DNA of 42,113 nt, taken from positions 84,223-126,335 of the forward strand of contig JAQGDQ010000620.1 of assembly GCA_030141605.1 (NCBI GenBank), given 5' to 3'. Origin of the DNA: Tubiluchus corallicola. Taxonomy: Eukaryota > Animalia > Priapulida. Every line of letters begins with the position of its first letter. The stretch's first letter is position 1. Below the pieces are notes generated by a model that worked only from the letters and a program-made list of their open reading frames with translations, was not told the origin of the DNA and ran no database searches. The position numbers were made by a program, and so were the translations under genes. Below, one piece after another: positions 1-42,113 of the stretch.

Positions 1-345
1 TCTCTCAATCATACCTAATCATACACCAAAACCTAAAATCATATTCACATATTGTCTGCACTAGTCTCTCAATCATACCTAATCATACACCAAAACCTAA
101 AATCATATTCACATATTGTCTGCACTAGTCTCTCAATCATAGCTAATCATACACCAAAACCTAAAATCATATTCACATATTGTCTGCACTAGTCTCTCAA
201 TCATACCTAATCGTACACCAAAACCTAAAATCATATTCACATATTGTCTGCATTAATCTCTCAATCATACCTAATCGTACACCTTTACCTAAAATCATAT
301 TCGCATATTGTCTGCACCAATCTCTCAATCATAGGTAATCATATA
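1..345. repeat. 64-bp tandem repeat, about 5.4 copies visible, runs off the left edge
   Basis: Unit TCTCTCAATCATACCTAATCATACACCAAAACCTAAAATCATATTCACATATTGTCTGCACTAG recurs at 1, 65, 129 and onward. Confidence 0.95.
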
Positions 346-374
346 CGTAATTTAAGTTTCACAACAATACTTAC

Positions 375-498
375 CTAGTAAGAGAAACGGTAAAACTGCA
401 TGTACTGGCCCGTACATTAGCCCACATAACGATGACAAACCAAACCCACTGATAATAGATAAACCAATGCAACACAAACCAATCAGCGCCAGGTATAT
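375..498 (-). CDS. Patched-domain (PTCHD3/NPC1-like) protein, coding exon 7 (sterol-sensing domain)
   Basis: ttttacag|ATA...CTA G|gtaagt; encodes IYLALIGLCCIGLSIISGFGLSSLCGLMYGPVHAVLPFLLLG, the SSD segment that precedes the GxGxDD motif. Confidence 0.93.
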
Positions 499-639
499 CT
501 GTAAAAGCAACACATTTACAAAACTACGTTACGCAAACCTCGGTAAGTTTTGTTTATAAAACACAATTAGAATATATATATGTGCAAAACAAGGCAGCAT
601 TGATAAATCTTTAGAGCTGATGTCAACGTAGCGCAATCT

Positions 640-950
640 ATTATCTTTCTTCCTGCCATTTCCACTAACACATCCTTCTACCCTTCCTGTGTGATCTAAC
701 CTTTCTCCCAGTTCCTTTTTTTTTGTTCACTCATCCATTTTTTATCGGGTTCACATGACAGTGGGCTTATACAAGCCTTTGCTTCTCTAGCCCACTGCAG
801 TACAATTATTCTTTTATGATAACGATAGTGTATGAAACATAACAATTTAATACAGTATGATGTAATAATTTTGATGTCACTATGTGCTTAATGTCATTAT
901 ATTGTACTGAATGTGATAATAATAATAAATAAAAAAAATAAATAAAAATG
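640..950 (+). mobile_element. Probable 3' end of an L2/CR1-group LINE
   Basis: Stem-loop CAGTGGGCT...AAGC-cttt-GCTT...AGCCCACTG (759-796), then an AT-rich tract and an AATAAATAAAA tail; no ORF remains. Confidence 0.4.
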
Positions 951-1051
951 AAAATTATGCTCTGTGGATATGGTTAAAACAAATTTTTACCAGTTTTCCT
1001 AAATAGTTTACAAATTTTCATAAAATAAATGATTATTAGATTTTTACATAC

Positions 1052-1172
1052 CCGATGTTCGACCAAATTAAATCGGCCCAGAACCAAACAAACGAAACAA
1101 AGCACCAGGACGTAACCAGTTACTAACACTTTGACATCGGCGATGATGGCCGATACTCCAAGCTGTGAGGTG
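1052..1172 (-). CDS. Patched-domain protein, coding exon 6
   Basis: ttcttcag|C ACC...CGG|gtatgt; (S)TSQLGVSAIIADVKVLVTGYVLVLCFVCLVLGRFNLVEHR, first SSD helix; phases fit both neighbours. Confidence 0.92.
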
Positions 1173-1465
1173 CTGAAGAAATTAGGGTAAAATTAAACAA
1201 TTGGAATGAAATTATTTACATTGAAATAGAATTTATTGCCAACCCCTTTCGAACAAACTGTTCATTATCAAGGCATCAAAAAAAACAATGAAATTTACCA
1301 GAGGTTAGAAACACCATCGAAATACAATTCAGTAGTTAGGTAACTAAAAGATATATGGTATAACATGATATAGATAATTTTATTTTTATTTGATATAATG
1401 AAATCTTTGAGCTAAAAACAACACAACTTTATTAAAAACTTTTACATTAAAAAATTAAAATCACG

Positions 1466-1504
1466 CCAAACGTTTTGACAGACTGCTGCTGTCATCATCA
1501 GTGG
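1466..1504 (-). ncRNA. Minimal type I hammerhead ribozyme motif (GAAA changed to AAAA)
   Basis: CCA CTGATGA T GACAG cagcagt CTGTC AAAA CG TT TGG. Confidence 0.65.
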
Positions 1505-1931
1505 TAAATTTACAAACATACAATCAGTTTATATAAGAGGAGCCTATTATGCACTAATTAAGTCAAATAGGTAATGATTAAACAGACGAATAAAGAAATT
1601 GATACAGTAAAAAAAAGCTAAGTGTTTGAAAACAAAGTGAAATGAATTGAACTGCTTTGTACATTAAGAGAAGGCTTATTAGGGTACATAGATAAAATTT
1701 CTTTTATTTTAACGGAAGTGGTGCTGACAAGCGACTGGCATAGCAGTGTCTAGTTTGTTTGCTGGATTACTGCTGCATTTACCTGTCTGAAGGCAGATTT
1801 CTTTTATTTTAGAGTTCTGCCTGCCAAATGTCTACAATAGACGTGACGGGCGTATGATGATGATGATGACATTAGTAAAAATCCCAGTTATTTGTAGCTC
1901 TGGCCACAATACTGAAATTATTAAAATCATG

Positions 1932-1970
1932 TCAAACATTTCGACAGACTACTGCTGTCATCATCAGTGG
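1932..1970 (-). ncRNA. Minimal type I hammerhead ribozyme motif
   Basis: CCA CTGATGA T GACAG cagtagt CTGTC GAAA TG TT TGA. Confidence 0.7.
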
Positions 1971-2199
1971 TAAATTTTCAAACATACAACCAGTTTATAT
2001 AAGCAGAGCCTATTATGCACTAATTAAGTAGTTAACAGAAGCCAAACAGGTAATGCATAAGCAGACCAGTAGAGAAATTGATGCTGTAACAGCTTTTGTG
2101 TGCCTGTAATAAAATTTTCTTGTAGAATTGCGTTATTAATAGGATGAGATGTTTATGTTCATGTTTACTTTTTGGTGCTAAAATTCTGTTTATGAAAAT

Positions 2200-2500
2200 A
2201 CTTTTTATCCTTCCTCTAATTCTAGATCTATCTATTCATTTTAACCATTCTTCAAAACCTATTAGCGATTCTTTTATTAATCATGTTTTATTGTACTACT
2301 ATAAATAGATAAATAAATTGAAATTGAATGGAATTGTCATTTCGCTATCCTTCCTCTAGTTCTATATCTATCTATACATTTTAACCATTCTTCAAAACTT
2401 ATTACAGATTATTTTATTAATCATGTTTCATTGTAAAATTATAAAGAGATAAATAAATTGAATTGAATTTTATTTGCATTTCTTTACCTCTTTCCTGCAA
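2200..2500. repeat. 140-bp tandem duplication abutting or overlapping the exon 5 donor
   Basis: TATCCTTCCTCTA...AAATAAATTGAA at 2206 and 2346; the third period falls at the donor (2487). Confidence 0.85.
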
Positions 2501-2585
2501 GGTAGTATAGCTCGTCGATCTGTGGATGCCCCGCCTCACCTATCTCTAGGAACTCATCCTCCCAAGCCTCTGCATCCTCATCTGT
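2488..2585 (-). CDS. Patched-domain protein, coding exon 5
   Basis: atttacag|ACA...AAG AG|gtaaag; TDEDAEAWEDEFLEIGEAGHPQIDELYYLAGK(S), contains the Patched-family WE..F motif. Confidence 0.9.
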
Positions 2586-2722
2586 CTGTAAATGATCATT
2601 GAATAAATTTCAATTCACCAACAGATCTGATTCAAAGAAGAGCAAAATTGAAATCAAATCACTTATTGTTTATCTCAACATAGTTAAAATTTACTAACAT
2701 ATGTTATTATAGCCAATCGTAT

Positions 2723-4263
2723 AAGGAAGGGGTGGAGAAGAACATCGGCCGCCCGAAGGAAGGGGTGGAGAAGAACATCGGCCGCCCGAAGGAAGGGGTG
2801 GAGAAGAACATCGGCCGCCCGAAGGAAGGGGTGGAGAAGAACATCGGCCGCCCCAGGGAAGGGGTGGAGAAGAACATCGGCCGTCCCAAGGAAGGGGTGG
2901 AGAAGAACATCGGCCGCCCCAGGGAAGGGGTGGAGAAGAACATCGGCCGCCCCAGGGAAGGGGTGGAGAAGAACATCGGCCGCCCCGAGGAAGGGGTGGA
3001 GAAGAACATCGGCCGCCCCGAGGAAGGGGTGGAGAAGAACATCGGCCGCCCCGAGGAAGGGGTGGAGAAGAACATCGGCCGCCCCGAGGAAGGGGTGGAG
3101 AAGAACATCGGCCGCCCCAGGGAAGGGTGGAAAGAACATCGGCCGCCCCGGGAAGGGGTGGAGAAGAACATCGGCCGCCCCAGGGAAGGGGTGGAGAAGA
3201 ACATCGGCCGCCCCAGGGAAGGGGGAGAAGAACATCGGCCGCCCCGGGAAGGGGGAAGGGGTGGAGAACATCGGCCGCCCAGGGAAGGGGTGGAGAAATC
3301 GGCCGCCCCAAGGAAGGTGAGAAGAACATCGGCCGCCCCAGGGAAGGGGTGGAGAAGAACATCGGCCACCCAAGGAAGGGGTGGAGAAGAACATCTGAAG
3401 GCCCCAAGGAAGGGGGGGGAGAAGAACATCGGCCGCCCCAGGGAAGGGGGGGAGAAGAACATCGGCCACCCAAGGAAGGGGTGGAGAAGAACATCGGCCG
3501 CCCCAAGGAAGGGGTGGAGAAGAACATCGGCCGCCCCAGGGAAGGGGGGGAGAAGAACATCGGCCGCCCCAGGGAAGGGGTGGAGAAGAACATCGGCCGC
3601 CCCAAGGAAGGGGTGGAGAAGAACATCGGCCGCCCCAAGGAAGGGGTGGAGAAGAACATCGGCCGCCCCAGGGAAGGGGTGGAGAAGAACATCGGCCGCC
3701 CCAGGGAAGGGGTGGAGAAGAACATCGGCTGCCCCAGGGAAGGGGTGGAGAAGAACATCGGCCGCCCCAGGGAAGGGGTGGAGAAGAACATCGGCCACCC
3801 AAGGAAGGGGTGGAGAAGAACATCTGAAGGCCCCAAGGAAGGGGGGGGAGAAGAACATCGGCCGCCCCAGGGAAGGGGGGGAGAAGAACATCGGCCACCC
3901 AAGGAAGGGGTGGAGAAGAACATCGGCCGCCCCAAGGAAGGGGTGGAGAAGAACATCGGCCACCCCAGGGAAGGGGGGGAGAAGAACATCGGCCGCCCCA
4001 GGGAAGGGGTGGAGAAGAACATCGGCCGCCCCAAGGAAGGGGTGGAGAAGAACATCGGCCGCCCCAAGGAAGGGGTGGAGAAGAACATCGGCCGCCCCAG
4101 GGAAGGGGTGGAGAAGAACATCGGCCGCCCCAGGGAAGGGGTGGAGAAGAACATCGGCCGCCCCAAGGAAGGGGTGGAGAAGAACATCGGCTGCCCCAAG
4201 GAAGGGGTGGAGAAGAACATCGGCCGCCCCAAGGAAGGGGGGGGAGAAGAACATCGGCTGCCC
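2723..4263. repeat. 33-bp GC-rich minisatellite, about 46 copies, intronic
   Basis: Unit AAGGAAGGGGTGGAGAAGAACATCGGCCGCCCC; a distinctive variant block recurs at about 3390 and 3820. Confidence 0.97.
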
Positions 4264-4368
4264 TAATTTTGTTCTCTTTATAAATTTTTCGCATGCAATG
4301 CCGATGATCACTAATCAGAAATGATAAAATTAAATTATGTAAGTATACTAGTATATTAGTATATTTAC

Positions 4369-4375
4369 GTGTGTG

Positions 4376-4407
<32 letters not shown>

Positions 4408-4542
4408 TGAGTGTGTGCGTGTGTGTGTGTGCATGCGTGCGAGTGTGTGTGTGTGTGCTTCTGCATGCGTGCGAGTGTGTGTGTGTTATAATCATGATCG
4501 TGTTACGACATTACCGATCCGAGGCCGAGTAATTGTGTGTGC

Positions 4543-4583
<41 letters not shown>

Positions 4584-4600
4584 CGTGCGTGCATGTGTGT
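4369..4600. repeat. (GT)n/(GCGT)n microsatellite interrupted by a copy of the exon 4 donor region
   Basis: Dinucleotide runs; 4486-4529 duplicates 4600-4643. Confidence 0.93.
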
Positions 4601-4628
4601 TATAATCGTGATCATGTTACAACATTAC

Positions 4629-4782
4629 CGATCCAAGGCCGAGCGCATTCGTATCCTTTACACTTTGATCCAGGAGCATCCAAGCCATAAATGTTGCTTT
4701 TGCGCCAACAATCAAGCCTGCAGAGTCCGTTTCTATCTGAGACAAATATGTCTTAACGTCATACGGAACAAAGTACACTGGG
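4629..4782 (-). CDS. Patched-domain protein, coding exon 4
   Basis: ttttgcag|C CCA...TCG|gtaatg; (S)[51 protein letters not shown], with the G.I..AKA loop motif. Confidence 0.9.
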
Positions 4783-5089
4783 CTGCAAAATAAAATTCAC
4801 TTGTATTATAGATATATAGGTCAATAAACATGGACGGCTGGACAGACAGATGGACGGACAAACGTTGGATAGTTAGATAGATACATAGACAGGAAAACAC
4901 ACAGACAGAGTGACTGACTAAGAGACGCACAGACAGACAGAAAGATACATAAATCCAAGAAATTACAAGTCAAAATACAGCAGAAGACTAAGTGACAGAT
5001 TCACAGAGAAACTGTAACCACAGATACAGAAAGATGGACGTGAACAGATGCAGGAAAAGAGGCAGACAGACGGAGTACAGCATTGTTGT

Positions 5090-5470
5090 GATGCAGTACA
5101 ATAAGCTTTTTCACAGTTTCGTTGTGCGCACACGCAGTTGATGCAGCTGAAAGGTTAAGCATTACAATTATTACACAACATGTGGGTAAAGCAAAGCTGG
5201 CTGCCACATCAGTTTAGTAACTTCAGTTGTTTTACGTGGACTTTACTTAATTATGCATTAGTCTGTGCTTAGAGTGATTTACTAGCAGGATCTTGCTTGG
5301 GAACAAGAAAAAATGAACTAGGTAAGGTTCTAGCTAGCTGTTAAAACTGTTACTATTACAATAGCATGGACTAAGAGGTGCCGTCAAGTGTACACGAATA
5401 CACGTAACCTTTGACCTCTTCACCATCATCATCAATCCCTGGAACTTATTTGCAAAAAAACATTGTTGTA
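5090..5470. repeat. Dispersed direct repeat, copy 1 (unclassified)
   Basis: Aligns by eye with 8320-8770 (for example AGTAACTTCAGTTGTTTTACGTGGA..TTACTTAATTATGCATTAGT). Confidence 0.8.
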
Positions 5471-6559
5471 CTGTAGTAACGATGGGAGTGTAGCTGGGGG
5501 GGGGGGGTGAGTTTGCACTCTAAATAAGGGAGAATCACTGTAGAGCAAGTTTGGATTGTCAGATCTGGCGATCTGGCATAGTGAAGAGTTCAAGATCATG
5601 TACAGAATGAAACAGAACGGAATGGAGGAAAGGGGAACATAGCTGAGTGGTCACGTGTGTGTGCTTAGCCACCAAAGTTAAGCAATGCTGTCGTTGATCA
5701 GTGAATGGATGCAGGACTGCTGTGTTCAATACTCGCTCTGGGCAGTTTCATTCGAATAAGTTCCCATCCAAATGTAGCCGTTTTAACTTAACCTCTTCTA
5801 TTGGTTCAGTGTCTCACTTTAGAGAAAAATAACCTTCAGTCTCCATGCAAAACATCAATGTTAAGTAGACCTCCCTTTTGAATACTGACCTCTGGAATTG
5901 CAGAATGACATAGCATGGTTTGGAATGTAATGGAACGAAACAGAACAATGATAGTCCTGGAACAAATCACGTGAAACCAATAATATTCTAAGGACAGTTA
6001 AAGTTCAAAAAAGCAACAATTTTATGTTACAAATGATATGAAAGAACAAGCTACTTTTACTGTCACTATTTTATACTGACTGTTTCGCATTGTCTGTAAA
6101 CATTCAACTTTTGACATACAACTCTTCTGACCCGAATTGTATATCAAATCGGTTGCCGTGTCAAAATTCCATGATATCATAATTTCATAAAGCACTTCAG
6201 GTATTTAGATCTCTGTTAAACTGCTATCTGACGAAATTCAGTTTTGCAGGTATATGAATTACGTAACACAGGTTGATAAATCTGCCTTTTGTTGGATAAA
6301 TTACAACAATTTCCTGACTTAAACCGTTTGTACAACTTCCTATACAAGTGTATTGACTTCTCATTAATGAGGTTAAATTCTACCAATTTCCTATCTCATA
6401 GGGGTGTATAATTAGAAAATTACAAAGTTAATGAGGTATTACACTGCCGGTATCTGTGTAATCAGTGGCGTGTGTAATTGATTCATTAAGTTTTGTGTCA
6501 CGTGATTGACTTGTCTTGTGAACTAGAATTATTACGTTCTGTTTTGTTTAATGGTTTAA

Positions 6560-7156
6560 AGGACGACAGGATGATTTTTCATTTCAAGACGCCATTTTCA
6601 AGTCCGATAAAAATTGAACATTTTAATACAATTAATACTGCAAATCATTTCTCATAATTAAATAATGGATTAAAAACTCAAAATTAACGGCGGGCGAGTC
6701 CAATTATTGATGACGTCGCAAACTGACGTAATTTTCAAGAACAAACATATTCCACGAGCGTGTTGCACACCGTGCTACTGTAAGATATTCAGTGTGTTAT
6801 ACTAAAACTAGGCAACCTTTAAGATAAAAATTCAAATTTTAAATTCACCGCTGTGCTCGCGCATGAGTTGTCGAATGTGTGTAGTTCGTCACAAACTAAC
6901 ACATCTGAACGGAGAGGTACAGCACCTGTTTTTGTGCAATGCGCTTCCGAAATGCCGGCGCTAGGTGCCCGTCTACCTAGTGAATGCCGAAACGCAATGT
7001 AACAGCAAAGAACTAGTGGCACGAACGTGAAATTGTGTTTGTTTGGTAATAATTCTTTCACGTAAGTCATTTTTGAAAAAATAATACGTTTCCTTTCAAT
7101 ATTTTAAAGAACAGATTGTTTTGACCTAGAGTTGTGAGACTAGGTCTGGTTTTTCT
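6560..7156. mobile_element. Kolobok-like non-autonomous DNA transposon, family A
   Basis: TTAA on both sides, ends AGGACGACAGGA...TCTGGTTTTTCT; homologous copies at 9877 and 16186. Confidence 0.65.
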
Positions 7157-7421
7157 TTAATAAATAAATAAACTCTTTCGTATCAACAATACAGTACATC
7201 ATAAAAAGGCTACAATAAAATTACAACCTAATCAAGTTCACATCTAGAATAAATTACAATACGTACATAGGCGTAGAGGAGGAAGTTTCAAAAGAGAGGT
7301 AAGAGGATTTTGCCCTGAAAATTTTCTAAGTTGCCCTAGTTTGAGTGATTTCCAAATAAGTGAAAACAGCGGGCCACATAACTATGTAGGGTAATAAACT
7401 TATGGATGTATCTAAAAACAG

Positions 7422-7596
7422 AGTATTTACATTTATAAGTCTATATGTTTATGCTTATTGTAAAAGTATTTACAATTATAAGTCTATATGTTTATGCTTA
7501 TTGTAAAAGTATTTACAATTATAAGTCTATATGTTTATGCTTATTGTAAAAGTATTTACAATTATAAGTCTATATGTTTATGCTTACTGTATTTAC
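7422..7596. repeat. 43-bp tandem repeat, 4 copies
   Basis: AGTATTTACAATTATAAGTCTATATGTTTATGCTTATTGTAAA. Confidence 0.92.
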
Positions 7597-7974
7597 ACGC
7601 ATGTTTATTGAATATAATATACATAGAGTGAAAGGAAACAACAGCTTTGCTATACATAAAAAACAATCTTAAATATATATATACGTATTTTTTAAGATTT
7701 AATCAATACGATATTTTCTTTGATGCGTTTTTAAAGTTTTCTTTCAATATTGTAAGAAATCGAAATTAAAATTAACAAATTAACGAGACGAGAGAAAGAA
7801 TGTGTTAAGAGACATCACCGTGTTTATTTTCTTACTTAATGTGGTAAATTTTATAATGCTGTCAATAGATTAATCAGGTAAGTTGGCATCGCCCCCTAGT
7901 AACAAAATTTACCCTGCAGACTTCATTTCGCCCCCTCCCCTCACATTCGTTATCTAATTGCTAAATTAGGGTTG

Positions 7975-8770: not shown

Positions 8771-8844
8771 AACAATGATCATTGTGCACACCGACAGATC
8801 TACAGACCATAGAGCTACTGTGTTTATCACATTGTTACACTTAC

Positions 8845-9080: not shown

Positions 9081-9730
9081 TTGACTCATAACATTTATTT
9101 ACAATCATTGTTCGACTCATAACATTCATTTACAATCATTGTTCGAGTCATAACATTCATTTACAATCATTGTTCGACTCATAACATTCATTTACAATCA
9201 TTGTTAGACTCATAACATTCATTTACAATCATTGTTCTACACATAACTTTCACTTACAATCATTGTTCTACACATAACATTCATTTACAATCATTGTTCT
9301 ACACATAACATTCATTTACACTCATTGTTCTACACATAACATTCATTTGCGATCATTGTTCTACACATAACATTCACTTACAATCATTGGTAACATTCAC
9401 TTACAATCATTGTTCTACACATAACATTCACTTACAATCATTGTTCTACACATAACATTCATTTACAATATTTGTTTGACTAGTAACAATTATTTACAAC
9501 CATTGTTTTACTCATAACATTAATTTGGGACATTGTTCTACACATAACATTCACTTACAATCATTGTTCTACACATAACATTCACTTACAATCATTGTTC
9601 TACACAACATTTATTTGCAATTATTGTTCTACTCATAACCTTCACATGCAATCATTCTCACTTTGATAACCTTCACTTACAATCATTGTTCTCTTCACAA
9701 TATGTTGCACAATCATTGCAACAATCGGCA
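9081..9730. repeat. 31-bp minisatellite, about 20 copies, decaying to the right
   Basis: ACWCATAACATTCAYTTACAATCATTGTTCK. Confidence 0.93.
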
Positions 9731-10846: not shown

Positions 10847-12229
10847 AATCAGTAACAATCATTACAATCAGTAACACTCCTTACAATCAGTAACACTCCT
10901 CACAATCAGTAACACTCATTACAATCAGTAACACTCCTTACAATCAGTAACACTCCTTACAATCAGTAATACTCCTTACAATCAGTAACACTCATTACAA
11001 TCAGTAACACTCCTTACAATCAGTAACACTCATTACAATCAGTAACACTCATTACAATCAGTAACACTCCTCACAATTAGTAACACTCACTACAATCAGT
11101 AACACTCATTACAATCAGTAACACTCATTACAATCAGTAACACTCCTCACAATTAGTAACACTCACTACAATCAGTAACACTCCTTACAATCAGTAACAC
11201 TCATTACAATCAGAAACACTCATTACAATCAGTAACACTCCTCACAATTAGTAACACTCACTACAATCAGTAACACTCCTTATAATCAGTAACACTCATT
11301 ACAATCAGTAACGCTCCTTACAATCAGTAACACTCATTACAATCAGTAACACTCCTCACAATTAGTAACACTCACTACAATCAGTAACACTCCTTACAAT
11401 CAGTAACACTCCTTACAATCAGTAACACTCATTACAATCAGTAACACTCATTACAATGAGTAACACTCCTTACAATCAGTAACACTCCTTATAATCAGTA
11501 ACACACCTTACAATCAGTAACACTCATTACAATTAGTAACACTCATTACAATGAGTAACACTCCTTACAATCAGTAACACTCCTTATAATCAGTAACACA
11601 CCTTACAATCAGTAACACTCATTACAATCAGTAACATTCCTTACAATCAGTAACACTCCTTATAATCAGTAACACACCTTACAATCAGTAACACTCATTA
11701 CAATCAGTAACATTCCTTACAATCAGTAACACTCCTGACAATCAGTAACACTCCTTACAATCAGTAACACTCCTGACAATCAGTAACACTCCTCACCAAT
11801 CAGTAACACTCCTCACAATCAGTAACACTCATTACAATCAGTAACATTCCTTACAATCAGTAACACTCCTGACAATCAGTAACACTCCTTACAATCAGTA
11901 ACACTCCTTACAATCAGTAACACTCATTACAATCAGTAACACTCCTTACAATCAGTAACACTCATTACAATCAGTAACACTCATTACAGTCAGTAACACT
12001 CATTACAATCAGTAACACTCCTTACAATCAGTAACACTCCTTACAATCAGTAACACTCCTTACAATCAGTAACACTCATTACAATCAGTAACACTCCTTA
12101 CAATCAGTAACACTCCTTACAATCAGTAACACTCCTTATAATCAGTAACACTCATTACAATCAGTAACACTCATTACAATCAGTAACACTCCTTACAATC
12201 AGTAACACTCATTACAATCAGTGACTTAC
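10847..12229. repeat. 19-bp minisatellite, about 72 copies, starting at the exon 2 donor
   Basis: CAATCAGTAACACTCMTTA. Confidence 0.97.
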
Positions 12230-12476
12230 AGCACTGAATACTGATGGTGTAAGAACATTATCGCTGACTAGAAGCATCAATTCTCCTCTGTATCGACTCG
12301 GATAGTTATCTCGAACAAATTTTGTATCTTTCTGGAGCGGGTCACCCTTAGGAGCCCAAAGCTCCTCAAGCATGGTTTCCTGGTAAAACCGGAGCAATCC
12401 GACACCAGAGAGGATTGTGAATATTAGGGCACTCCATATTGAAATCCACGGATGAGCTCCTATCAGCTTGCCCAAC
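12230..12476 (-). CDS. Patched-domain protein, coding exon 2 (first TM helix)
   Basis: ttttttag|G TTG...GCT|gtaagt; (K)LGKLIGAHPWISIWSALIFTILSGVGLLRFYQETMLEELWAPKGDPLQKDTKFVRDNYPSRYRGELMLLVSDNVLTPSVFSA. Confidence 0.93.
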
Positions 12477-32366: not shown

Positions 32367-34410
32367 GCTGAATTTGGGGTCAACCCTCCCTGCAGTCCCG
32401 TGTTTAGTTCCTGCTTTACCTGGATTTGGAGGTCAACCATGCAGTCCCGTGTTTAGTTCCTGCTTTGGCTGGATTTGGAGGTCAACCCTGCAGTCCCGTG
32501 TTTAGTTCCTGCTTTGGCTGGATTCGGAGGTCAACCATGCAGTCCCTTGTTTAGTTGCTGCTTTGGCTGGATTTGGAGGTCAACCCTGCAGTCCCGTGTT
32601 TAGTTCCTGCTTTGGCTGGATTTGGAGGTCAACCATGCAGTCCCTTGTTTAGTTGCTGCTTTGGCTGGATTTAGGGTCCACCTTGCAGTCCCGTGTTTAG
32701 TTGCTGCTTTGGCTGGATTTGGGGTCGACCCTACAGTCCCTTGTTTAGTTGCTGCTTTGGCTGGATTTGGGGGTCAACCTGAAGTCCCGTGTTTAGTTGC
32801 TTTGAATTTGGGGTCAACCCTGCAGTCCCTTGTTTAGTTGCTGCTTTGGCTGGATTTGGGGGTCAACCTTGCAGTCCCGTGTTTAGTTGCTGCTTTGGCT
32901 GGATTTGGGGTCAACTTTGCACTCCCGTGTTTAGTTGCCGCTTTGGCTGGATTTGGAGGTCAACCATGCAGTCGATTGTTTAGTTGCTGCTTTGGCTGGA
33001 TTTGGGGTCAAATTTGCACTCCCGTGTTTAGTTGCTGCCTTGGCTGGATTTGGAGGTCAACCATGCAGTCGATTGTTTAGTTGCTGCTTTGGTTGGATTT
33101 GCGGGTCAACCTTACAGTCCTTTGTTTAGTTGCTGCTTTGGCTGGATTTGGGGTCAACCTTGTAGTCCCGTGTTTAGTTGCTGCTTTGGCTGGATTTGGA
33201 GTCAACCCTGCAGTCCCTTGTTTAGTTGCTCCTTTACCTGGATTTGGAGATCAACCCTGCAGTCCCGTGTTTAGTTCCTGCTTTACCTGGATTCGGAGGT
33301 CCACCTTGCAGTCCCTTGTTTAGTTGCTGCTTTGGCTGGATTTGGAGGTCAACCCTGCAGTCCCGTGTTTAGTTCCTGCTTTGGCTGGATTTGGAGGTCA
33401 ACCATGCAGTCCCTTGTTTAGTTGCTGCTTTGGCTGGATTTAGGGTCCACCTTGCAGTCCCGTGTTTAGTTGCTGCTTTGGCTGGATTTGGGGTCGACCC
33501 TACAGTCCCTTGTTTAGTTGCTGCTTTGGCTGGATTTGGGGGTCAACCATGCAGTCTATTGTTTAGTTGCTGCTTTGGCTGAATTTGGGGTCAACCCTGC
33601 AGTCCAGTGTTTAGTTGCTGCTTTGAATTTGGGGTCGACCCTACAGCCCCTTGTTTAGTTGCTGCTTTGGCTGAATTTGGGGTCAACCCTGCAGTCCCTT
33701 GTTTAGTTGCTGCTTTGGCTGGATTTGGGGTCAACCATACAGTCCCTTGTTTAGTTGCTGCTTTGGCTGAATTTGGGGTCAACCTGAAGTCCCGTGTTTA
33801 GTTGCTGCTTTGGCTGAATTTGGGGTCAACCTGAAGTCCCGTGTTTAGTTGCTGCTTTGAATTTGGGGTCAACCCTGCAGTCCCGTGTTTAGTTGCTGCT
33901 TTGGCTGAATTTGGGGGTCAACCTTGCAGTCCCGTGTTTAGTTGCTGCTTTGAATTTGGGGTCAACCCTGCAGTCCCGTGTTTAGTTGCTGCTTTGGCTG
34001 GATTTGGGGGTCAACCTTGCAGTCCCGTGTTTAGTTGCTGCTTTGGCTGGATTTGGAGGTCAACCATGCAGTCGATTGTTTAGTTGCTGCTTTGGCTGGA
34101 TTTGGGGTCAACTTTGCACTCCCGTGTTTAGTTGCCGCTTTGGCTGGATTTGGAGGTCAACCATGCAGTCGATTGTTTAGTTGCTGCTTTGGCTGGATTT
34201 GGGGGTCAACTTTGTAGTCCCGTGTTTAGTTGCTTTGAATTTGGGGTCAACCCTGCAGTCCTTTGTTTAGTTGCTGCTTTGGCTGAATTTGGGGTCAACC
34301 CTGCAGTCCCGTGTTTAGTTGCTGCTTTGGCTGGATTTGGAGTCAACCCTGCAGTCTATTGTTTAGTTGCTCCTTTACCTGGATTTGGGGGTCAACTCTG
34401 CAGTCCCTCT
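32367..34410. repeat. 48/49-bp minisatellite, about 42 copies
   Basis: GCTGGATTTGGRGGTCAACCCTGCAGTCCCGTGTTTAGTTGCTGCTTTG. Confidence 0.97.
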
Positions 34411-35138
34411 GCAGTCCCTCTGTAGTGATCTTAATATGACAGCTATTTAAGAGCACCTGCGTTGATCGACGTTTTAGAAATGTGCATCGAAGCCCCAAAG
34501 GTTAAGTGTAATATTAGAATACAGAAAAACAGTAATGATCGACAGTTATCAGTAAGTAAGTAAGTAATGGTATGTTAATGGTGAATATCAGCAGAAAAGG
34601 ATGATCAAAAAAGTTGAAGGTCGGCAGAGAATAATCTTTTAACGAAAACAAAAAAATTGTCAGTGTGACGTGGAATAGAACCTGTGTTAAATTCTCTCCC
34701 GTCTCGTTACAGAGGGAAGGGGATGTTCGTTGGAGATACTCACTAGGAGGAGATCGTTGAAGAACGGTTAAGCGGCATAGGACTTTGCGAAGATCTCTCA
34801 TACTTCCTTAATGAATTCTCTGTGAACACTCCGAAACTTGAGACTAAAATTGGCGAGTGAATTCTATATTTTGTTAATAATGTTGCTGCGTAATTGAAGT
34901 GAGTTAAAGTAGTTATTTCTTTTGAAAAAGTGAATTTAGATTTTGTGTTATAGGAGTCCTTACTTAGCACTGTCTAATTTAAATTTAATTTATTCTAAAA
35001 TGGAAGCACGTAGTTAAATATGCTCGTTGCGCTTACGTCTCTTAAGCTTTCTGTACATCATATTTTCTGCTTACGCTTTCTGTATCTTTAATTTTTTAAA
35101 TTAATTTAATGTTTTTGATTAAGGAGTATTCTATCAAT

Positions 35139-35231
35139 ATGACTAGCGCTGACGTTAGAGATATTTTGGAGATCGACTCGTCGGAGCAGCAGACCGTAAC
35201 AAAGGAAAGTCTGTTTAATGATGATAAAAAG
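35139..35231 (+). CDS. DMAP1: DNA methyltransferase 1-associated protein 1 (SWC4/EAF2), coding exon 1
   Basis: MTSADVRDILEIDSSEQQTVTKESLFNDDKK|gtgatt; the ADVRDILE motif marks the DMAP1 N-terminus. Confidence 0.93.
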
Positions 35232-35463
35232 GTGATTTATTTTCACACATAATATTGCATACAATTAGATTTAATTATAATGATGATATTTAATTTTGTT
35301 CATGATGAACTCATTAATTGATTAACAATACTGCTTGGTTAGAAGCCATTTTGTTTGCTTTTCCTATATAAGCAGTTAAAAAGTGTTAGAGCCTTTTAAC
35401 TGAAGTAGTTTCGTGATATTTACAACATAAATATATTTTGCCCTAAAATTGTCCTAGTTTGAG

Positions 35464-35740
35464 CATAGGTGTACGGGCCACTTCTAGAGGGGGCTGAGCC
35501 ACTCTTGCCCGAAAAATACAGTGCCAACCCGAAGAAAGTCCCGAGTTGGGAATTGCCTCACCCTACTCCATGATAAAAAAAAATGCTTGGATTTCGGGTA
35601 CTTTGTTTGGCGGAATGGAGAAATTTTGAGGTTTCCTCTTACGAAACATATTATTTCATCTTTTGCCCAGTGCCCGAATCCAGCTGCAGCAACAACACCC
35701 CCCCCCCCCCCGACCCAGCCCCCTGGCTCGTATGCCTGTG
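35464..35740. mobile_element. GC-rich MITE (Harbinger-like)
   Basis: TIRs CATAGGTGTACGGGCCA / TGGCTCGTATGCCTGTG; a related end occurs at 7266. Confidence 0.6.
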
Positions 35741-35880
35741 AGCTTGAGGGGGGCAATGATCTCCCTCCTGGCACCTATAACAATGCAAAACACCGAATTA
35801 TAATAACCTTTAGTAAAAAAAAACAGGACGAGCCAAAGGTTTGCATTTTCACTGAACAAACATCAGATACTTTCATAATA

Positions 35881-36469
35881 CGGTCTAACCTCGTTATCTC
35901 GCCACTGTCCGTCTAGGGCAAATTTTTGGCGAGAGGCGAGTATGGCGAGATAACGGGAATATAACGAAGTTAGTCTATATGTATATACATAATAGTTGAT
36001 TTAGTAACATAAAACAGTTTTCGCTTCAGAGACATCATGTAAAGTTGCTCACACTTTGTGAAAACTCAAACTTAAATGCAGCTTTGGTGTTATAGAATAA
36101 GGATATCGGTGACGCTTTAATTTCTCTGCGCATTAACCAACCACAGCACTCCTAATCTAATCCTGGTGAGACACACACTAGATTAATTATGTCTGTCTAT
36201 CGAGTACAGCAGCATTGTCTACATGCCGCGGTTATATTGATCGACACGCGGTATATGTATTGATCGATTCACCTCTGAGTTTGTCTGTTTGGCGACATAA
36301 CGAATATAGTTTACATAAGCACTCATCCTAGCATGACGTGGCGAGGGCGAGAAGCAAGGGTGGCGACTTAACGAGGTAAATATCAAAGCAGGAAATCCGT
36401 CCTGGTACTTTCTTTGGCGAGAGACGAGTTTGGCCACATAACGAGGGGCGAGATAACGAGGTTAGACTG
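35881..36469. mobile_element. Tc1/mariner (pogo/Tigger-like) MITE
   Basis: TA target duplication; 23-bp TIR C(G/A)GTCTAACCTCGTTATCTCGCC with one mismatch. Confidence 0.88.
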
Positions 36470-36968
36470 TACTTTTTTAATATTTCAGAAATTCAAAAAA
36501 AATAATGGCGACTGTTTATGTTTTCCTTTTGCAAACATGTCTGTAACTTTGCTAGTATACTGAGAAGCAGATACATGTAAAAAAGACTTATGAGGTTTAA
36601 TGAACTAAAATTGATAGCAGGCACTATTATAATCTTACAGTTATTAAAATTTAAATGCATTTTGTTGTACAAGAAACACTTTAATTGCAGCCAGTGAAAA
36701 GTGATAGGCCTAATGCAAGTTTTGAATATTGAAATCTTAAATTTTAAAATGTTAAAACTGAGTTATTTGATCTGAAAAAATCTGCTTTTGCCCTGAAAAA
36801 TAGAATTCATTTCCCCTGGGAAGGCAACCACTCCCCCTGACTCTCCGCCTCGTACATCCCTTATTGTTAACTTACTGCTCTCGGCCGTGTTTCCACACGA
36901 GGAGCGCACAATTCCAGTTTAGGTGGTATCTGCACACACTTTTGCCTGAAAATTTCTTTAATTTAGTT

Positions 36969-37402
36969 CAGGGGTGTGCAAATTATCTGACTAGCCGGGC
37001 CACATTAAACATTCCCGCAATTCCTGTGGGCCACATGCAGTTTGGTCGAGGAGCCAAGTACAGTAGGACCTAATAATGATTTTTTTTACATCCGATTTGC
37101 GCACATCATTACTACTGCACTACTACACTCATGAAACTATTTTAGAAGTTATTAAAATTTATATTAAAAACCATATATTTCGTCATGTCCGACAGTCACA
37201 TTAAGTGACAACGGTCTTGTAAGGGTTAATGCCATCCGATCTAGAGGAAAAAACTACCCGCACTATCTTTGCGATATTGGCGCAGACTTCAGCTGGATCG
37301 CGTGGGCCGCACTTTCATTACGTTGACAAACCTCTTCGCGGGCCGCACAAGATCTCTCAGCGGGCCGCAAGTGGCCCGCAGGCCGCAGTTTGCACACCCC
37401 TG
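36969..37402. mobile_element. hAT (Charlie-like) MITE
   Basis: TIR CAGGGGTGTGCAAA / TTTGCACACCCCTG; perfect 8-bp TSD ATTTAGTT; GGGCCGC subterminal repeats. Confidence 0.92.
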
Positions 37403-37787
37403 ATTTAGTTGTTGACTCACAAACTAGAAGGCATAGTTTAACGGTGATTGCCACATCAACCCTAGTAAAGTTTAAACTTTAACTGACAGCTATTTTGTTG
37501 AATGTTTCTATGAGTGTTTCTGTGAGTGTGCTCGCTTAACCCCTAATCAAGACAGCATAACAGTGTATTATCAGCAATAAAACCCTCGTTTAAGAGATTA
37601 CACTCTAGCTAATGTTGTGCATGTGAGGTTTGACCATTTTCGAAATTAACTTTTTTAACAGGTTTGTCCTTTTCATGCTCCTGACTGATAATGTCTTGGT
37701 CAATTGATGGCAGTCTTTGACAATAATTATCGTATCTGTTAAACTTCCAAGTATGCAATCTTGCACGATGCTCTAGTTTTCCTTCAA

Positions 37788-38331
37788 AGGAAAACCGGAT
37801 GATTGTGTAAACACGAGTTCAGAATAAAGAATGCTCTAAAATATTGAAAACTACAATAGCTTATTTTAAATCAAAGCTTAGATTAAATAATAATTACCTC
37901 GGATACTCAAATTTTGTTAAACTTTCAAAGCTACGCGCGGCTCAGTGAATCTACTAAGATTGGCGGCGGCGCCTTTTTGTCACGTGCGCGTGGCCGACAA
38001 ATGGAAGGCGGTACCGTGATAAGCATGATCATGAACTGCAGTGTTAGTTTCATGATGTCATATGACGTAGACCCCAATATTTGTGACATCATGCGTTCAA
38101 ACAGTACTGTAACACTTACGCAAATGTGCTTGATGCGCAATGGAAGGCACCTGCCATTGCACAAACTGTGGCTACTTTCTGACGTAAACAATAGCTGTGT
38201 TCGGTTGCCATTAATTAACTTTCTAAGCTAATTATTCAAATACAAGGAACAATTGTTAACTTTTATAGGCAAGAAAATGTATATTTTGGACAGTAAATTA
38301 AAATGAGTCTAAGCAATCGTACGGTCTTCCT
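37788..38331. mobile_element. Kolobok-like MITE
   Basis: TCAA|AGGAAAACCGGATGATTG ... CAATCGTACGGTCTTCCT|TTAA. Confidence 0.7.
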
Positions 38332-38373
38332 TTAACAAAAATTTGCTGAACTAGAGTAGCTATGTGGGCTTAA

Positions 38374-38862
38374 AGTTCAAGAAAACCTTCCGCTTACATA
38401 AAGCTTAAGAAATTCATATTGAAATTTTATATCACTTACACACTGTTTTTTGCATGCAGGGCTTGCCTCTGCGGTAACGCTGTATAAAACTTGTAAATTT
38501 AAACTCCTGTGATGGCTGTTAGACGCAGCCATTTTGAGGATAAGTCTTTTGAAAAAATTGTTATTTGTGGTTACATACGTGTTTCAAGCAGGTAAGCCAA
38601 ATGCTAAGTAATATAGATTGGCATGGAAAGTTGTTTGGGACATAATTGAACGTTTCCTTTTCTTCCGCTGATTTACGTTTGCGTATGGGATGTCTTATAA
38701 TGGCACTGTCGGAATTATATTGCAGGATATTTAAAATAAAAACAAACAAAAGTTCCTTTCAACACGAGTACGATATGTGCACAAAATTGCCGTAAAGTAA
38801 TGTAATTTTTAAAGCAATTTTTCTGAAAGCTACTTTAGGTACCCTACCCCTTTTCTTGTAGT
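38374..38862. mobile_element. Kolobok-like element family B, copy 2
   Basis: TTAA|AGTTCAAGAAAA ... TTTTCTTGTAGT|TTAA; homologous to 25206-25843. Confidence 0.6.
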
Positions 38863-38898
38863 TTAACAGAGTTTTCCTCAAAGTTTTACTTCTTGCAG

Positions 38899-38981
38899 AA
38901 AAAGAAGAAACCAGAGCAAGGTTTTAAACGTCCAGAAGGGATGCACCGTGAGGTTTGGGGTCTCCTCTACACAGACCCGAG
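38899..38981 (+). CDS. DMAP1: DMAP1 coding exon 2
   Basis: cttgcag|AAA...AG|gtaagt; KKKKPEQGFKRPEGMHREVWGLLYTDP(R). Confidence 0.96.
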
Positions 38982-39740
38982 GTAAGTTTAATTTATAACA
39001 ACAAGTTTCATATTGCTGATTCAAAGAAATTGTCAGACTAAACGCCATCATAACCGTAAGTGTTTGCTACATTTTGCATGGCTTCATGAAAAACTGCTCT
39101 CATTAAGCAGTGATTATATTATATTTGATAATTTTTGTAGGTTTCTACTTCTCACACAATGGATTTTCGTACAAAATTATATATGAAATGCATTTGCTTA
39201 CCTTAGACAAATTAAAAATCGATTTTTGACAAAAAAATGAAAAAGCCTTTCAGTAACCGAAGTGTAACAATGTACAGCACATTTGTGTGAAATCGGCTAA
39301 AATTTCAACTATCCTGTTAAATGATTGATCGGTTGGTTTCTCCTGGAACTCTGTACAGCAGACTGTTCACTTGAGTTGTAGCAAGCAGGCGATCAATAAA
39401 TTAGTGTGTACGATCACACAAGTGTACACTTTTTCTTCATTTTATCCAATCAAATCACTTATAAATATTTAAACAAATAGCATGATTGGATAGTCGAGAT
39501 ACTTCTGAATGGAACAGTACCTAATTTGTAATCATTTAGTTATGTCTGTGCTGATACAGTAACAGAAAAGGTCTTATAAGGCCTATTTTGAATGGTTAAT
39601 TTTCTTCTGTTGAATGTTACAGACTTCCGGAGCTTAAAGGTACACTTCTACATATCTAAAATTGTTTCGTTTTTTAGCTAGATTCGGCCAAGCGTGGCAT
39701 CGGCTTGCTTCTACTGATATTCTCTCTGCTTTTTTCACAG

Positions 39741-39861
39741 GGATGCTCCTGCTATGATGCAGAATGACACCAGTTTGGGTTACAAGTCGTTAAAGGCAAA
39801 AATAGGCCGAAGTAAAGTTAGACCTTGGAAGTGGATGCCGTTTACTAACCCCGCACGTAAA
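39741..39861 (+). CDS. DMAP1: DMAP1 coding exon 3
   Basis: ttcacag|G GAT...AAA|gttagt; DAPAMMQNDTSLGYKSLKAKIGRSKVRPWKWMPFTNPARK. Confidence 0.96.
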
Positions 39862-40337
39862 GTTAGTATAAACTTTTATTGATGTGCTATGCCTGGTACT
39901 GTTTACTAGTCCCACCTGGAAAGTTAGTATAAACTTTTATTGATGTGCTATGCCTGGTACTCTTTATTAATATAGCCTGGAAAGTATGTATAAACTTTGT
40001 TGATCTGCTGTGCCTGGTGCTGTTTATTAATCCTGCCCGGAAAGTATGTACAAACTTTTATTGATGTGCTATGCCTGGTGCTATTTATTAGTCCTGCCCA
40101 GAAAGTATGTATAAACTTTTATTGATGTGCTATGCCTGGTGCTATTTATTAGTCCTGCCCAGAAAGTATGTATAAACTTTGTTGATGTGCTGTGCCTGGT
40201 GCTGTTTATTAATCCCGCCCAGAAAGTATGTATAAATTTTTATTGATGTGCTATGACTGGTGCTGTTTACTAGTCCTGCCCGGAAAGTATGTGTAAACTT
40301 TTATTGATGTGCTATGCCTGATGCTGTTTATTAATCC
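39841..40337. repeat. 60/61-bp tandem repeat spanning the DMAP1 exon 3 donor, 8 units
   Basis: AAA|GTWWGT at 39862, 39923, 39984, 40044, 40105, 40166, 40226 and 40287. Confidence 0.93.
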
Positions 40338-40824
40338 CATACATAATGTAAAGTTTTTGTTTAAAAAGATATTGTTTAACGTAGAATTTTTTTTCTAGTT
40401 TTCCTATTAGTTTAATGTAATTCTTCGTTTGTATCCCGTAGAAAACTTTCGCTTTTTCTCTTAAGAAAGTAAACAGTTGAAACATCATTTTTATTTTTGT
40501 TTTTGTTCAAATATGATTTATTTTTGTCAGGAACCTAGCTTGCTAAATGCCATGCTGATGGTATAATGGGTTTACACTGTTTACAAAAGCAAATTCCATT
40601 GGACTTCGTTCAGTAATCTTAAAGTTTCACAGATGTCTGTTATAAATGAAATGTTAGTTGAAAAAACTTGTACTGCTGCACTAGTTTTCTAAGCACTTTC
40701 CTGTAGTGAATTATGTAAATGCATGGCGCCATCTGTTGACAAAAAAGTAAAGCACAGCGGATTTGTAATGTCTCGTTAAAAAGAACGAAATTGCAATTTT
40801 AAAAATTTCGTTTTCTGACTACAG

Positions 40825-40899
40825 GATGGCGCCATCTTCTATCACTGGAGAAGAGTTGCAGACGAAGGTAAAGATTATCCATTTGCAAGGTTTAACAAG
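40825..40899 (+). CDS. DMAP1: DMAP1 coding exon 4
   Basis: ctacag|GAT...AAG|gtgagt; DGAIFYHWRRVADEGKDYPFARFNK. Confidence 0.97.
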
Positions 40900-41104
40900 G
40901 TGAGTTAATTAAATGATTAATTAACACCTGCCTGGAATGAATACCTGCACACTTTGCAAAATAACTTTGTTTTTTCGTGTTACCTTAAGTATTTATTTTT
41001 ATGAATCTTGGTCACAGTTGTTCTATTACAATTTTACGATAATATAATTAGGATCATCATTATATTATTAGACATGATTAATAAGTAATAATTTTCTCGT
41101 TTAG

Positions 41105-41220
41105 CCTGTAGAGGTTCCATCGTACTCGGATTTAGAATACCAGATGCATCTTCATGATGACAACTGGACAATGGAAGAGACGGATCATCTCTTCAGTCTG
41201 TGCAGTAGATTTGACTTCAG
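41105..41220 (+). CDS. DMAP1: DMAP1 coding exon 5 (start of the SANT/Myb-like domain); gene continues past the window
   Basis: gtttag|CCT...AG|gtattc; PVEVPSYSDLEYQMHLHDDNWTMEETDHLFSLCSRFDF(R). Confidence 0.96.
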
Positions 41221-41529
41221 GTATTCTTCTTGGTGTTAAACATAAACCGGACGATTGTTTAGACTCAATCTCATTTTAGTTTACTGTCTAAAATATACAT
41301 TTTCTTGCCTATAAATGTTAGCAATTGTTTCTAATATTTGAATAATTAGCTTAGAAAGTTAATTAACGGCAAGCGAACACAGTTATCGCTTACGTCACAA
41401 ACCAACCACACTTTGTGCAATGGTAGGCATCTTCCCTGCACGTCAAGCATGTTTGCTTAAGCGTAGATTGCTATAAGATGGTGATGTGATGTCACGAAAA
41501 TGTGTTGTTCATCACGTTGGCATCACAGA

Positions 41530-42113
41530 CAAACACTGCAGTTAATGATCATTTTTATCACGGTACTGCTAGGATTTTTAAATACAATGTAGCAAGTTTT
41601 TCCTGCCTACATAGGAAAGTTGTGTTTAGTCTCAGAAGTATGCTGTTTTTGAATCAGAATACTGTTATTAATAACTTGCTGTACAATACTGATACAATTT
41701 TTAGATACAATGTGCCAAGTTTTTCATGCATACGTAAGAAAGCTGTGTTTAGTTTCAGAAGTAGGCTAGTTTTGAGTCAGAATACTGTTATTAATAACTT
41801 GCTGTACAATACTGATACAATTTTTAGGTACAATGTGCCAAGTTTTTCATGCATACGTAAGAAAGTTGTGTTTAGTTTCAGAAGTAGGCTGTTTTTGAGT
41901 TAGAATACTGTATTAATAACTTGCTGTACAATACTGATACAATTTTTAGGTACAATGTGCCAAGTTTTTCCTGCATACGTAGGAAAGTTGTGTTTAGTTT
42001 CAGAAGTAGGCTGTTTTTGAGTCAGAATACTGTTATTAATAACTTGCTGTACAATACTGATACAATTTTTAGATACAATGTGCCAAGTTTTTCATGCATA
42101 AGTAGGAAAGCTG
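41530..42113. repeat. 122/123-bp tandem repeat, at least 4.5 copies, runs off the right edge
   Basis: GATACAATTTTTAG at 41691, 41814, 41936 and 42059. Confidence 0.93.

What the first reader, a model, noticed from the sequence alone, without database searches (positions are those of the whole stretch)
1..42113. Tandem repeats seeded on splice junctions in two unrelated genes
Seen: unrelated repeat units each start at or overlap a donor: DMAP1 exon 3 (61 bp x8), Patched exon 4 (114 bp x2), exon 5 (140 bp) and exon 2 (19 bp x about 72). Two more arrays at the window edges (64 bp, 123 bp) look like copied acceptors. That is 4 of the 12 visible coding donors plus 2 inferred acceptors. Where exon sequence is included, the intact exon sits at the outer end of the array and the intron side fills with decoy sites. 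Inference: a mutational process focused on splice junctions (co-transcriptional pausing, R-loop repair or RNA-templated duplication), or selective tolerance of such duplications, is expanding introns from their ends. I do not know whether this has been described for this lineage.
Basis: partly seen in the sequence, partly recalled or inferred. Interest (0 to 1): 0.82.

Follow-up and report, generated by a model that had tools for sequence, protein, structure and literature searches.

The report
Splice-junction "mirage" repeats, invertebrate introns
In two genes of an invertebrate, short pieces spanning an exon's end and its splice signal are copied head to tail into the next intron, a repeat type already described in lancelets ("mirages") and human genes, and here likely a tolerated by-product of frequent local duplication rather than a process aimed at splice junctions.

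Summary
Partly confirmed, and a known kind. The window holds DMAP1 (+) and a PTCHD3-like gene (−), not Patched proper. Of the six arrays named, two span a donor with exon sequence: DMAP1 exon 3 (61 bp ×8) and PTCHD exon 4 (114 bp ×2). The 19-bp ×72 array starts at the exon 2 donor but holds only intron bases. The 140-bp pair keeps no donor copy. The 64-mer is probably a copied acceptor (P≈0.002, exon outside the window); the 123-mer is not. Arrays do lie near donors: 5 of 12 within 35 nt, against 0.7–2.3 expected (P 0.0004–0.03, window chosen after the fact). Units that certainly contain a splice site (2 of 12) do not exceed chance (1.0–1.5). Tandem repeats fill 26% of the window and are about as dense between genes; dispersed elements also abut junctions. 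"Intact exon outermost" follows from geometry. These match lancelet mirages and the human F7 intron-7 VNTR. The scan noted such arrays before in at least 8 other genomes. No genome or RNA was available, so junction bias and decoy use are untested.

The parts
39741..39861 (+). DMAP1 exon 3 (121 nt), authentic donor AAA|GTTAGT at 39861/39862
   Evidence: 40 of 40 residues align to human DMAP1 67-106, E=1.4e-14; in-frame model
39836..40337 (+). 61-bp x8.3 donor-spanning array (mirage): about 25 nt exon + 36 nt intron; 7 decoy donors after 39922, 39983, 40043, 40104, 40165, 40225, 40286
   Evidence: TRF 87% matches; register and decoy scores; X4 contig over three units
4629..4782 (-). PTCHD3-like exon 4 (154 nt), donor TCG|GTAATG
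   Evidence: tblastn with P0127 residues 179-221; in-frame model
4411..4643 (-). 114-bp x2 donor-spanning duplication (mirage): 15 nt exon + donor + CA microsatellite; one identical decoy donor, GT at 4514
   Evidence: self-BLAST 82% over 119 nt; junction test 0 of 200 shuffles; not checked in reads (skipped 4359-4603)
12230..12476 (-). PTCHD3-like exon 2 (247 nt), donor GCT|GTAAGT
   Evidence: 157 relatives at E<=0.001; tblastn; names
10847..12229 (-). 19-bp x72 array starting at the donor GT; intron-only unit, likely grown from the first 14 nt of the intron; 52 weak ATT|GTAA(G/T)G sites
   Evidence: far edge bridged by X1 and X2 contigs
2488..2585 (-). PTCHD3-like exon 5 (98 nt), donor GAG|GTAAAG
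   Evidence: tblastn with P0122 residues 224-262
2206..2468 (-). 140-bp x1.9 duplication starting 6-19 nt into intron 5; no surviving donor copy; possibly a decayed mirage, not shown
   Evidence: extension across the donor P=0.20, junction test P=0.32
375..498 (-). PTCHD3-like exon 7 (sterol-sensing domain), phase-1 donor TAG|GTAAGT
   Evidence: Pfam PF02460 E=1.7e-5; tblastn
1..343 (-). 64-bp x5.4+ array, cut by the window edge; probable acceptor mirage (about 54 nt intron + 10 nt of the expected exon 8 start); if so, the intron before duplication was 86 nt
   Evidence: anchored profile test P about 0.002, gapped test P=0.29; expected next residues from 14 homologs
41574..42113 (+). 123-bp x4.4+ array in DMAP1 intron 5, 353 nt from the donor, next to a dispersed element; no evidence of a copied acceptor or exon
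9087..9692 (-).
   Evidence: bridged to exon 3 by X1 and X2 contigs
2723..4263 (-). 33-bp x47 array filling most of intron 4, ending 137 nt before the exon 5 acceptor; no splice site
41244..41569 (.). High-copy dispersed element starting 24 nt after the DMAP1 exon 5 donor (control: unrelated DNA also abuts junctions)
   Evidence: 78% match to 38008-38337; loose ends at 41244 and X1 depth 2e5-5e5

Best explanation
Two arrays that span a splice donor, and likely two more at splice sites, are 'mirage' repeats, likely made by ordinary local tandem duplication and likely tolerated because splicing would keep using the first donor. Step 1 (inferred): slippage or repair synthesis duplicates 20-140 nt head to tail at a high rate everywhere in this genome, and unequal exchange then expands some seeds. 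Step 2 (inferred): the introns were short before transposons and arrays inflated them, so a duplication in one often touched or lay near a junction. Step 3 (geometry): a duplication across a donor leaves the whole exon at the outer end and the copies in the intron. Step 4 (inferred from the F7 experiments and the in-frame stops seen here): the most upstream donor wins, and rare decoy use gives a premature stop and would be cleared by nonsense-mediated decay, so selection against the arrays is weak.
For: Units match the published mirage layout and size range. Tandem repeats cover 10,850 of 42,113 nt, 26%. Arrays occur at 0.45 per kb between genes (4 in 8.9 kb) and 0.58 per kb in introns (12 in 20.5 kb) after collapsing each to one unit. 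Units certainly containing a splice site are 2 of 12, against 0.97-1.45 expected, P=0.25-0.44. 5 of 12 intronic arrays lie 353-3,916 nt from the nearest visible site. With arrays collapsed and dispersed elements masked, 8 of 12 introns (two of them cut by the window edge) shrink to 662 nt or less (coarse mask). Dispersed elements end 28 nt before the DMAP1 exon 2 acceptor and start 24 nt after the exon 5 donor. In-frame stops come at codon 7 (DMAP1), 4 and 4 (PTCHD) after the true donor. The DMAP1 decoy exon parts differ from the exon at 7-12 of 27 nt and carry amino-acid changes, as expected of old, unselected copies. In F7, downstream pseudo-sites up to consensus value 91 were not used.
Against: 5 of 12 arrays start within 35 nt of a donor, against 0.74 (P=0.0004), 1.12 with elements masked (P=0.003) and 2.28 within their own intron (P=0.033). 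Counting the 19-mer and 64-mer, 4 of 12 units contain a site (P=0.011-0.043). My nulls assume no selection against junction duplications, which would lower the expectation further. Six of seven DMAP1 decoys (AAA|GTATGT, 6.1 bits) score above the true donor (4.0 bits) on a matrix made from the other 11 donors, so tolerance needs position-based choice, which is untested here. The scan noted the same pattern in at least 8 other genomes (unchecked notes).
Confidence: 0.65

Rival explanations
1. Duplications really are seeded preferentially at splice junctions, mostly donors, by a transcription-linked process (polymerase pausing at exon ends, R-loops or breaks during co-transcriptional splicing), and introns grow from their ends.
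For: 5 of 12 arrays start within 35 nt of a donor, nominal P 0.0004-0.033; 4 of 12 units contain a site on the generous count, P 0.011-0.043. The 19-, 64- and 31-mers are strongly G-skewed on the sense strand (+0.67, +0.66, +0.59) against -0.01 for other intron DNA. Ebner et al. call the mechanism unclear and possibly general in cephalochordates.
Against: One window, chosen for this pattern, with a threshold chosen after looking; at 10 and 20 nt the own-intron null gives P=0.23 and 0.087. The two certain cases have no G skew (+0.08, -0.42). One of the five near-donor arrays (64-mer) is better explained as an acceptor copy in an 86-nt intron. Intergenic array density is similar. No exon-exon joins occur in the units.
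Confidence: 0.25
2. The decoy ladders are functional: they tune DMAP1 and PTCHD levels by diverting part of the splicing into nonsense transcripts.
For: Decoys equal or outscore the true donor at DMAP1 exon 3 and PTCHD exon 4, and any use gives an in-frame stop. All 7 DMAP1 decoys keep GT. Human CBS and IFI 6-16 use two pseudo-sites.
Against: Each array has a different unit and layout; the exon-like parts have drifted (7-12 of 27 nt); lancelet mirages are reported not to disturb splicing; most arrays in the window have no splice site.
Confidence: 0.06
3. The arrays are assembly artefacts.
For: No listed contig spans a whole array; the exon 4 duplication, the 64-mer and the 123-mer were not checked in reads.
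Against: Copies differ from one another by 6-16%, unlike collapsed or stuttered reads; a contig from another study covers three DMAP1 units, and contigs bridge three array edges.
Confidence: 0.03

Closest known systems
Lancelet 'mirage' minisatellites (Adh3, globins BflGb6 and BflGb9, troponin C, PGBD5); PMC3087553 and PMC3902484, passages read
   Same: Head-to-tail repeats whose unit spans an exon-intron boundary, at 5' or 3' sites, units of 10-160 bp, 2-7 copies in the globin and PGBD5 cases, many with GT/AG signals, several loci in one genome, mechanism unclear.
   Different: Another animal (lineage not settled here). Normal splicing and length polymorphism were shown in lancelets and are untested here. 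The 19-mer holds only the intronic half of the donor and has 72 copies.
Human F7 intron 7 37-bp VNTR, with CBS intron 13, IFI 6-16, lamin B2 and PDGF minisatellites; PMC1557585, abstract, introduction and discussion read
   Same: The first unit spans the exon-intron boundary, the donor is repeated into the intron (4-25 pseudo-sites), and the true exon is outermost.
   Different: F7 pseudo-sites are identical to the true donor; six of the seven DMAP1 decoys differ from it and score higher. Splice-site use was measured there and not here.
Intron gain by tandem genomic duplication (Rogers model, as cited in PMC3087553; potato RdRp case PMC4974935, search listing only)
   Same: The same mutational event: a tandem duplication that contains splice signals.
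   Different: There the duplication lies in an exon and creates a new intron; here existing introns lengthen and no new intron is seen.

Membership tests
Mirage / junction-spanning minisatellite | Head-to-tail unit contains both exon and intron sequence of a real junction | tested here: met
   DMAP1 exon 3 and PTCHD exon 4: 2 of 22 visible sites
Mirage / junction-spanning minisatellite | Same feature, for the 19-mer, 140-mer and 64-mer | tested here: inconclusive
   19-mer intron-only, P=0.055; 140-mer P=0.20-0.32; 64-mer P about 0.002 anchored but 0.29 gapped, exon outside the window
Mirage / junction-spanning minisatellite | Same feature, for the 123-mer | tested here: not met
   No match to the expected exon 6 start, P=0.37 and 0.87; a real exon start scored 53 bits by the same method
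Mirage / junction-spanning minisatellite | Extra copies lie in the intron and keep GT/AG signals | tested here: met
   7 of 7 DMAP1 copies and 1 of 1 PTCHD exon 4 copy keep the GT donor
Mirage / junction-spanning minisatellite | Unit length within the described 10-160 bp range | tested here: met
   61 and 114 bp against the range in PMC3087553
Mirage / junction-spanning minisatellite | Regular splicing is undisturbed | not testable with these tools
   No RNA holder was listed
Mirage / junction-spanning minisatellite | Copy number varies between alleles | tested here: inconclusive
   Only short contigs; none spans an array, and depth is not a copy number
Retroposed or spliced-RNA-templated duplication | Copies carry exon-exon joins | tested here: not met
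   Units continue from exon into the adjoining intron
Dispersed satellite or transposon family inserted at junctions | Unit is high-copy elsewhere in the genome | tested here: not met

The most novel reading that the evidence does not exclude
This genome has a transcription-coupled mutational bias that seeds tandem duplications at exon-intron junctions, mainly donors, so that introns grow outward from their ends and fill with decoy sites that can outscore the true donor. It would give hundreds of natural F7-like tests of first-come splice-site choice and a route to new introns and duplicated exons.
Probability: 0.22. Interest if true: 0.6.

Novelty: new member of a known kind. Interest (0 to 1): 0.22.

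Why it matters
As it stands it extends mirage repeats to another invertebrate and warns annotators that decoy donors can mislead gene models. If a genome-wide junction bias were real, it would address the open question of how mirages arise (called unclear in PMC3087553) and link transcription to intron growth. The DMAP1 array, where six decoys outscore the true donor, is a ready test of position-based 5' splice-site choice outside mammals.

Tried and rejected
No whole genome is held, so the genome-wide distance test could not be run. No RNA holder was listed; X6, guessed to be RNA, gave only short pieces of dispersed repeats and no splice joints. X5 and X6, under the same species label, held next to none of the stretch's words. 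In X4 the depth over the 19-mer end (4.45) equalled the flank (4.58) while the 33-mer was high (562); this may hint at a shorter allele, but depth is no copy number. The word-indexed search with PTCHD exon 2 found none of 45 candidates at E<=1e-6; the exhaustive search then found 157. Its repetitive hits P0121, P0126 and P0262 are unrelated repeat proteins and were dropped. Lineage was not settled: best DMAP1 exon 3 identities were 75-78%, to nemertean, mollusc, annelid and brachiopod proteins, and the best PTCHD hit was Lingula at 43%; 'priapulid' comes only from earlier notes. Rows left out of the array count: microsatellites (period under 10), TRF rows scoring under about 100, the 27-bp rows inside the GAT tract and redundant periods; the 114-bp pair was added from self-BLAST. 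The transposon mask is coarse: read-depth bins of about 230 nt for 4100-11000 and 34600-41560, self-BLAST only elsewhere, so intron 1 of PTCHD is under-masked and DMAP1 intron 2 probably over-masked. Rejected: 123-mer as a copied acceptor; 140-mer as a decoy donor; spliced-RNA template; a uniform R-loop signature. Literature: searches found no genome-wide test of junction-spanning repeat enrichment; one search found nothing on priapulid intron repeats; one search found only the two lancelet papers; one search listed papers on transposon distribution near exons (listing only, not used as evidence). The Adh3 mirage paper (recalled as Canestro et al. 2002) is not held and is known here only through PMC3087553 and PMC3902484. 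No supplements were read.
Full report
Setting. The window is animal DNA and no whole genome is held. It carries seven exons of a patched-domain gene on the minus strand, an intronless thyroglobulin-type-1/WAP gene at 29247-30740, and five exons of DMAP1 on the plus strand. Both spliced models are open in frame. DMAP1 exon 3 aligns to human DMAP1 and exon 5 to PF16282. All seven minus-strand exons align in order to full-length homologs; three of the four named ones are 'patched domain-containing protein 3-like' and one 'patched homolog 1' of Lingula, so this is a PTCHD3-like gene rather than the Hedgehog receptor. Earlier scan notes call the genome priapulid-like; my searches did not settle the lineage.

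DMAP1 exon 3: a 61-bp unit of about 25 exon and 36 intron bases, 8.3 copies, seven decoy donors. PTCHD exon 4: a 114-bp pair with 15 exon bases, an identical donor 9-mer and a CA microsatellite. Comparing the 30-mer around each of the 22 visible splice sites with the adjoining 400 nt of intron gave a junction-spanning copy beyond shuffles at these two sites only; one further hit, at the DMAP1 exon 4 acceptor (P=0.005), covers exon bases only and does not span the junction. The 19-mer begins at the exon 2 GT: the first 14 intron bases resemble the unit, 52 copies carry ATT|GTAAGG or ATT|GTAATG, and no exon bases are included. The 140-bp pair starts 6-19 nt into intron 5. Extending the alignment outward from the core scores above shuffles (P=0.012), but the part across the donor does not (P=0.20), and no donor GT survives. 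The 64-mer has TTTTAG followed by ten bases that fit the expected start of exon 8; 14 homologs read G-[I/L/V]-G-[V/I]-D there, and the copy reads G-F-G-V-stop. One of 3,524 background AGs scores as well (unit-level P about 0.002), although an unanchored gapped test does not beat shuffles (P=0.29). If it is an acceptor copy, the intron was 86 nt before duplication, which alone explains why the array starts 31 nt after the exon 7 donor. The 123-mer shows no match to the expected exon 6 and starts right after a dispersed element. The tally is two certain, one half-site, one probable, one doubtful and one wrong.

Are the arrays real? Copies differ by 6-16%. A contig from a second study (X4) covers three DMAP1 units with six differences, and an X1 contig bridges the exon 3 donor. 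X1 and X2 contigs bridge the far edge of the 19-mer and link exon 3 to the 31-mer. X1-X3 are one sample and may be the assembly's source. Summed depth over the arrays laid (140 to 4,606 in X1) is far below that of dispersed elements (1e5 to 1.7e6), so they look locus-specific, on a rough measure.

Is it more than chance? I took the 12 intronic arrays with period 19 or more, collapsed each to one unit and placed units at random. Five of 12 start within 35 nt of a donor, against 0.74 expected (P=0.0004), 1.12 with dispersed elements masked (P=0.003) and 2.28 when each is kept in its own masked intron (P=0.033; at 10 and 20 nt P=0.23 and 0.087). Units spanning a donor with exon bases number 2, against 0.50-0.76 (P=0.09-0.17). 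Units containing a true GT or AG number 2 for certain, against 0.97-1.45 (P=0.25-0.44), or 4 on the generous count (P=0.011-0.043). So there is a nominal excess near donors, but it comes from one window selected for the pattern and a threshold chosen afterwards. Against a special process: tandem repeats fill 26% of the window; arrays are about as dense between genes (0.45 per kb) as in introns (0.58 per kb); five intronic arrays lie 353-3,916 nt from any visible site; and dispersed elements sit 28 nt from the DMAP1 exon 2 acceptor and 24 nt from the exon 5 donor, as expected if the introns were once short. For a bias: my nulls ignore selection against junction duplications.

How it most likely works. 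Shown: the units are colinear exon-intron DNA with no exon-exon join, which excludes a spliced-RNA template for the two certain cases. Shown: translation past each true donor meets a stop at codon 7 (DMAP1) or 4 (PTCHD exons 2 and 4). Shown: the exon-like parts of the DMAP1 decoys differ from the exon at 7-12 of 27 bases, with amino-acid changes, so the seed is old relative to differences between alleles (20 letters in 675 in one X1 contig). Geometry: any head-to-tail duplication across a donor leaves the whole exon outermost, so that layout is no evidence of mechanism. Inferred: slippage or repair synthesis made the seeds, unequal exchange expanded them, the first donor is used, and stray products are removed by nonsense-mediated decay. 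One point needs testing: six DMAP1 decoys (AAA|GTATGT, 6.1 bits) outscore the true donor (AAA|GTTAGT, 4.0 bits) on a matrix from the other 11 donors, though both match the consensus at 6 of 9 positions. Sense-strand G skew, expected for R-loops (from general knowledge), is strong in the 19-, 64- and 31-mers but absent from the two certain cases.

Comparison with what is known. Ebner et al. [quoted passage not shown] PMC3902484 (passages read) adds PGBD5 and troponin C. Borensztajn et al. (PMC1557585; abstract, introduction and discussion read) list human F7, CBS, IFI 6-16, lamin B2 and PDGF minisatellites whose first unit spans a donor, and show that the most upstream site wins even against pseudo-sites of consensus value 91. 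The two certain arrays meet the structural definition; normal splicing and polymorphism could not be tested. I found these papers before the scan's notes, which report the same kind in at least 8 other genomes (unchecked). Searches found no genome-wide enrichment test, and search 39 nothing on priapulids; the library lacks most subscription papers.

Verdict. A real but partly overstated observation of a known repeat type in a repeat-rich genome: new member of a known kind, interest 0.22. A true junction-focused mutational bias is not excluded (about 0.22-0.25) and needs the genome-wide test.

Noticed in passing
window 29247-30740 +: Intronless 497-aa cysteine-rich ORF with a likely signal peptide, two thyroglobulin type-1 domains, WAP-like stretches, an internal duplication (29522-29665 vs 30197-30337, 74%) and a hydrophobic C-terminus; may be a secreted or anchored protease inhibitor.
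   Followed up: partly
window 26658-27589: Intergenic 41-bp x23 array whose end matches a dispersed stretch at 24319-24389 in inverted orientation (87% over 71 nt), and by eye one at 28320-28440: likely a transposon-borne minisatellite.
   Followed up: partly
window 32388-34426: Intergenic 49-bp x42 array with higher-order duplication (a 300-nt block recurs at 96% 769 nt later), about 0.7 kb upstream of the DMAP1 start codon.
   Followed up: no
window 14737-15223: A 487-nt element with 151-nt terminal inverted repeats at 85%, MITE-like, in PTCHD intron 1.
   Followed up: no
window 6556-7330, 9873-10475, 16182-16495; 5099-5435, 8329-8725; 38008-38337, 41244-41569: Several dispersed element families with X1 summed depth 2e5-1.7e6 against about 100-200 for unique DNA, so thousands of copies on a rough measure.
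   Followed up: partly
window 39852: X1 and X4 contigs carry a synonymous C>T in DMAP1 exon 3 that matches the base found in several decoy copies; shared ancestry or gene conversion from the array.
   Followed up: no
window 21594-21629 and 2440-2470: TTCAA-type short repeats follow the donors of PTCHD exons 1 and 5 within a few bases; they resemble LINE 3' tails (recalled, not tested).
   Followed up: no
window 12592-13124, 17849-18290, 19443-19617, 20200-20393: Long compound trinucleotide tracts (AGT/CAA, GAT, TGA, and a perfect ATT x64.7) in PTCHD intron 1; the first starts 115 nt from the exon 2 acceptor.
   Followed up: no
window 8833-8961: An X1 contig differs at several places in and near PTCHD exon 3 (9 letters and 14 gap positions in 419 nt), and X1/X4 show five changes in exon 4: high allelic diversity.
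   Followed up: no
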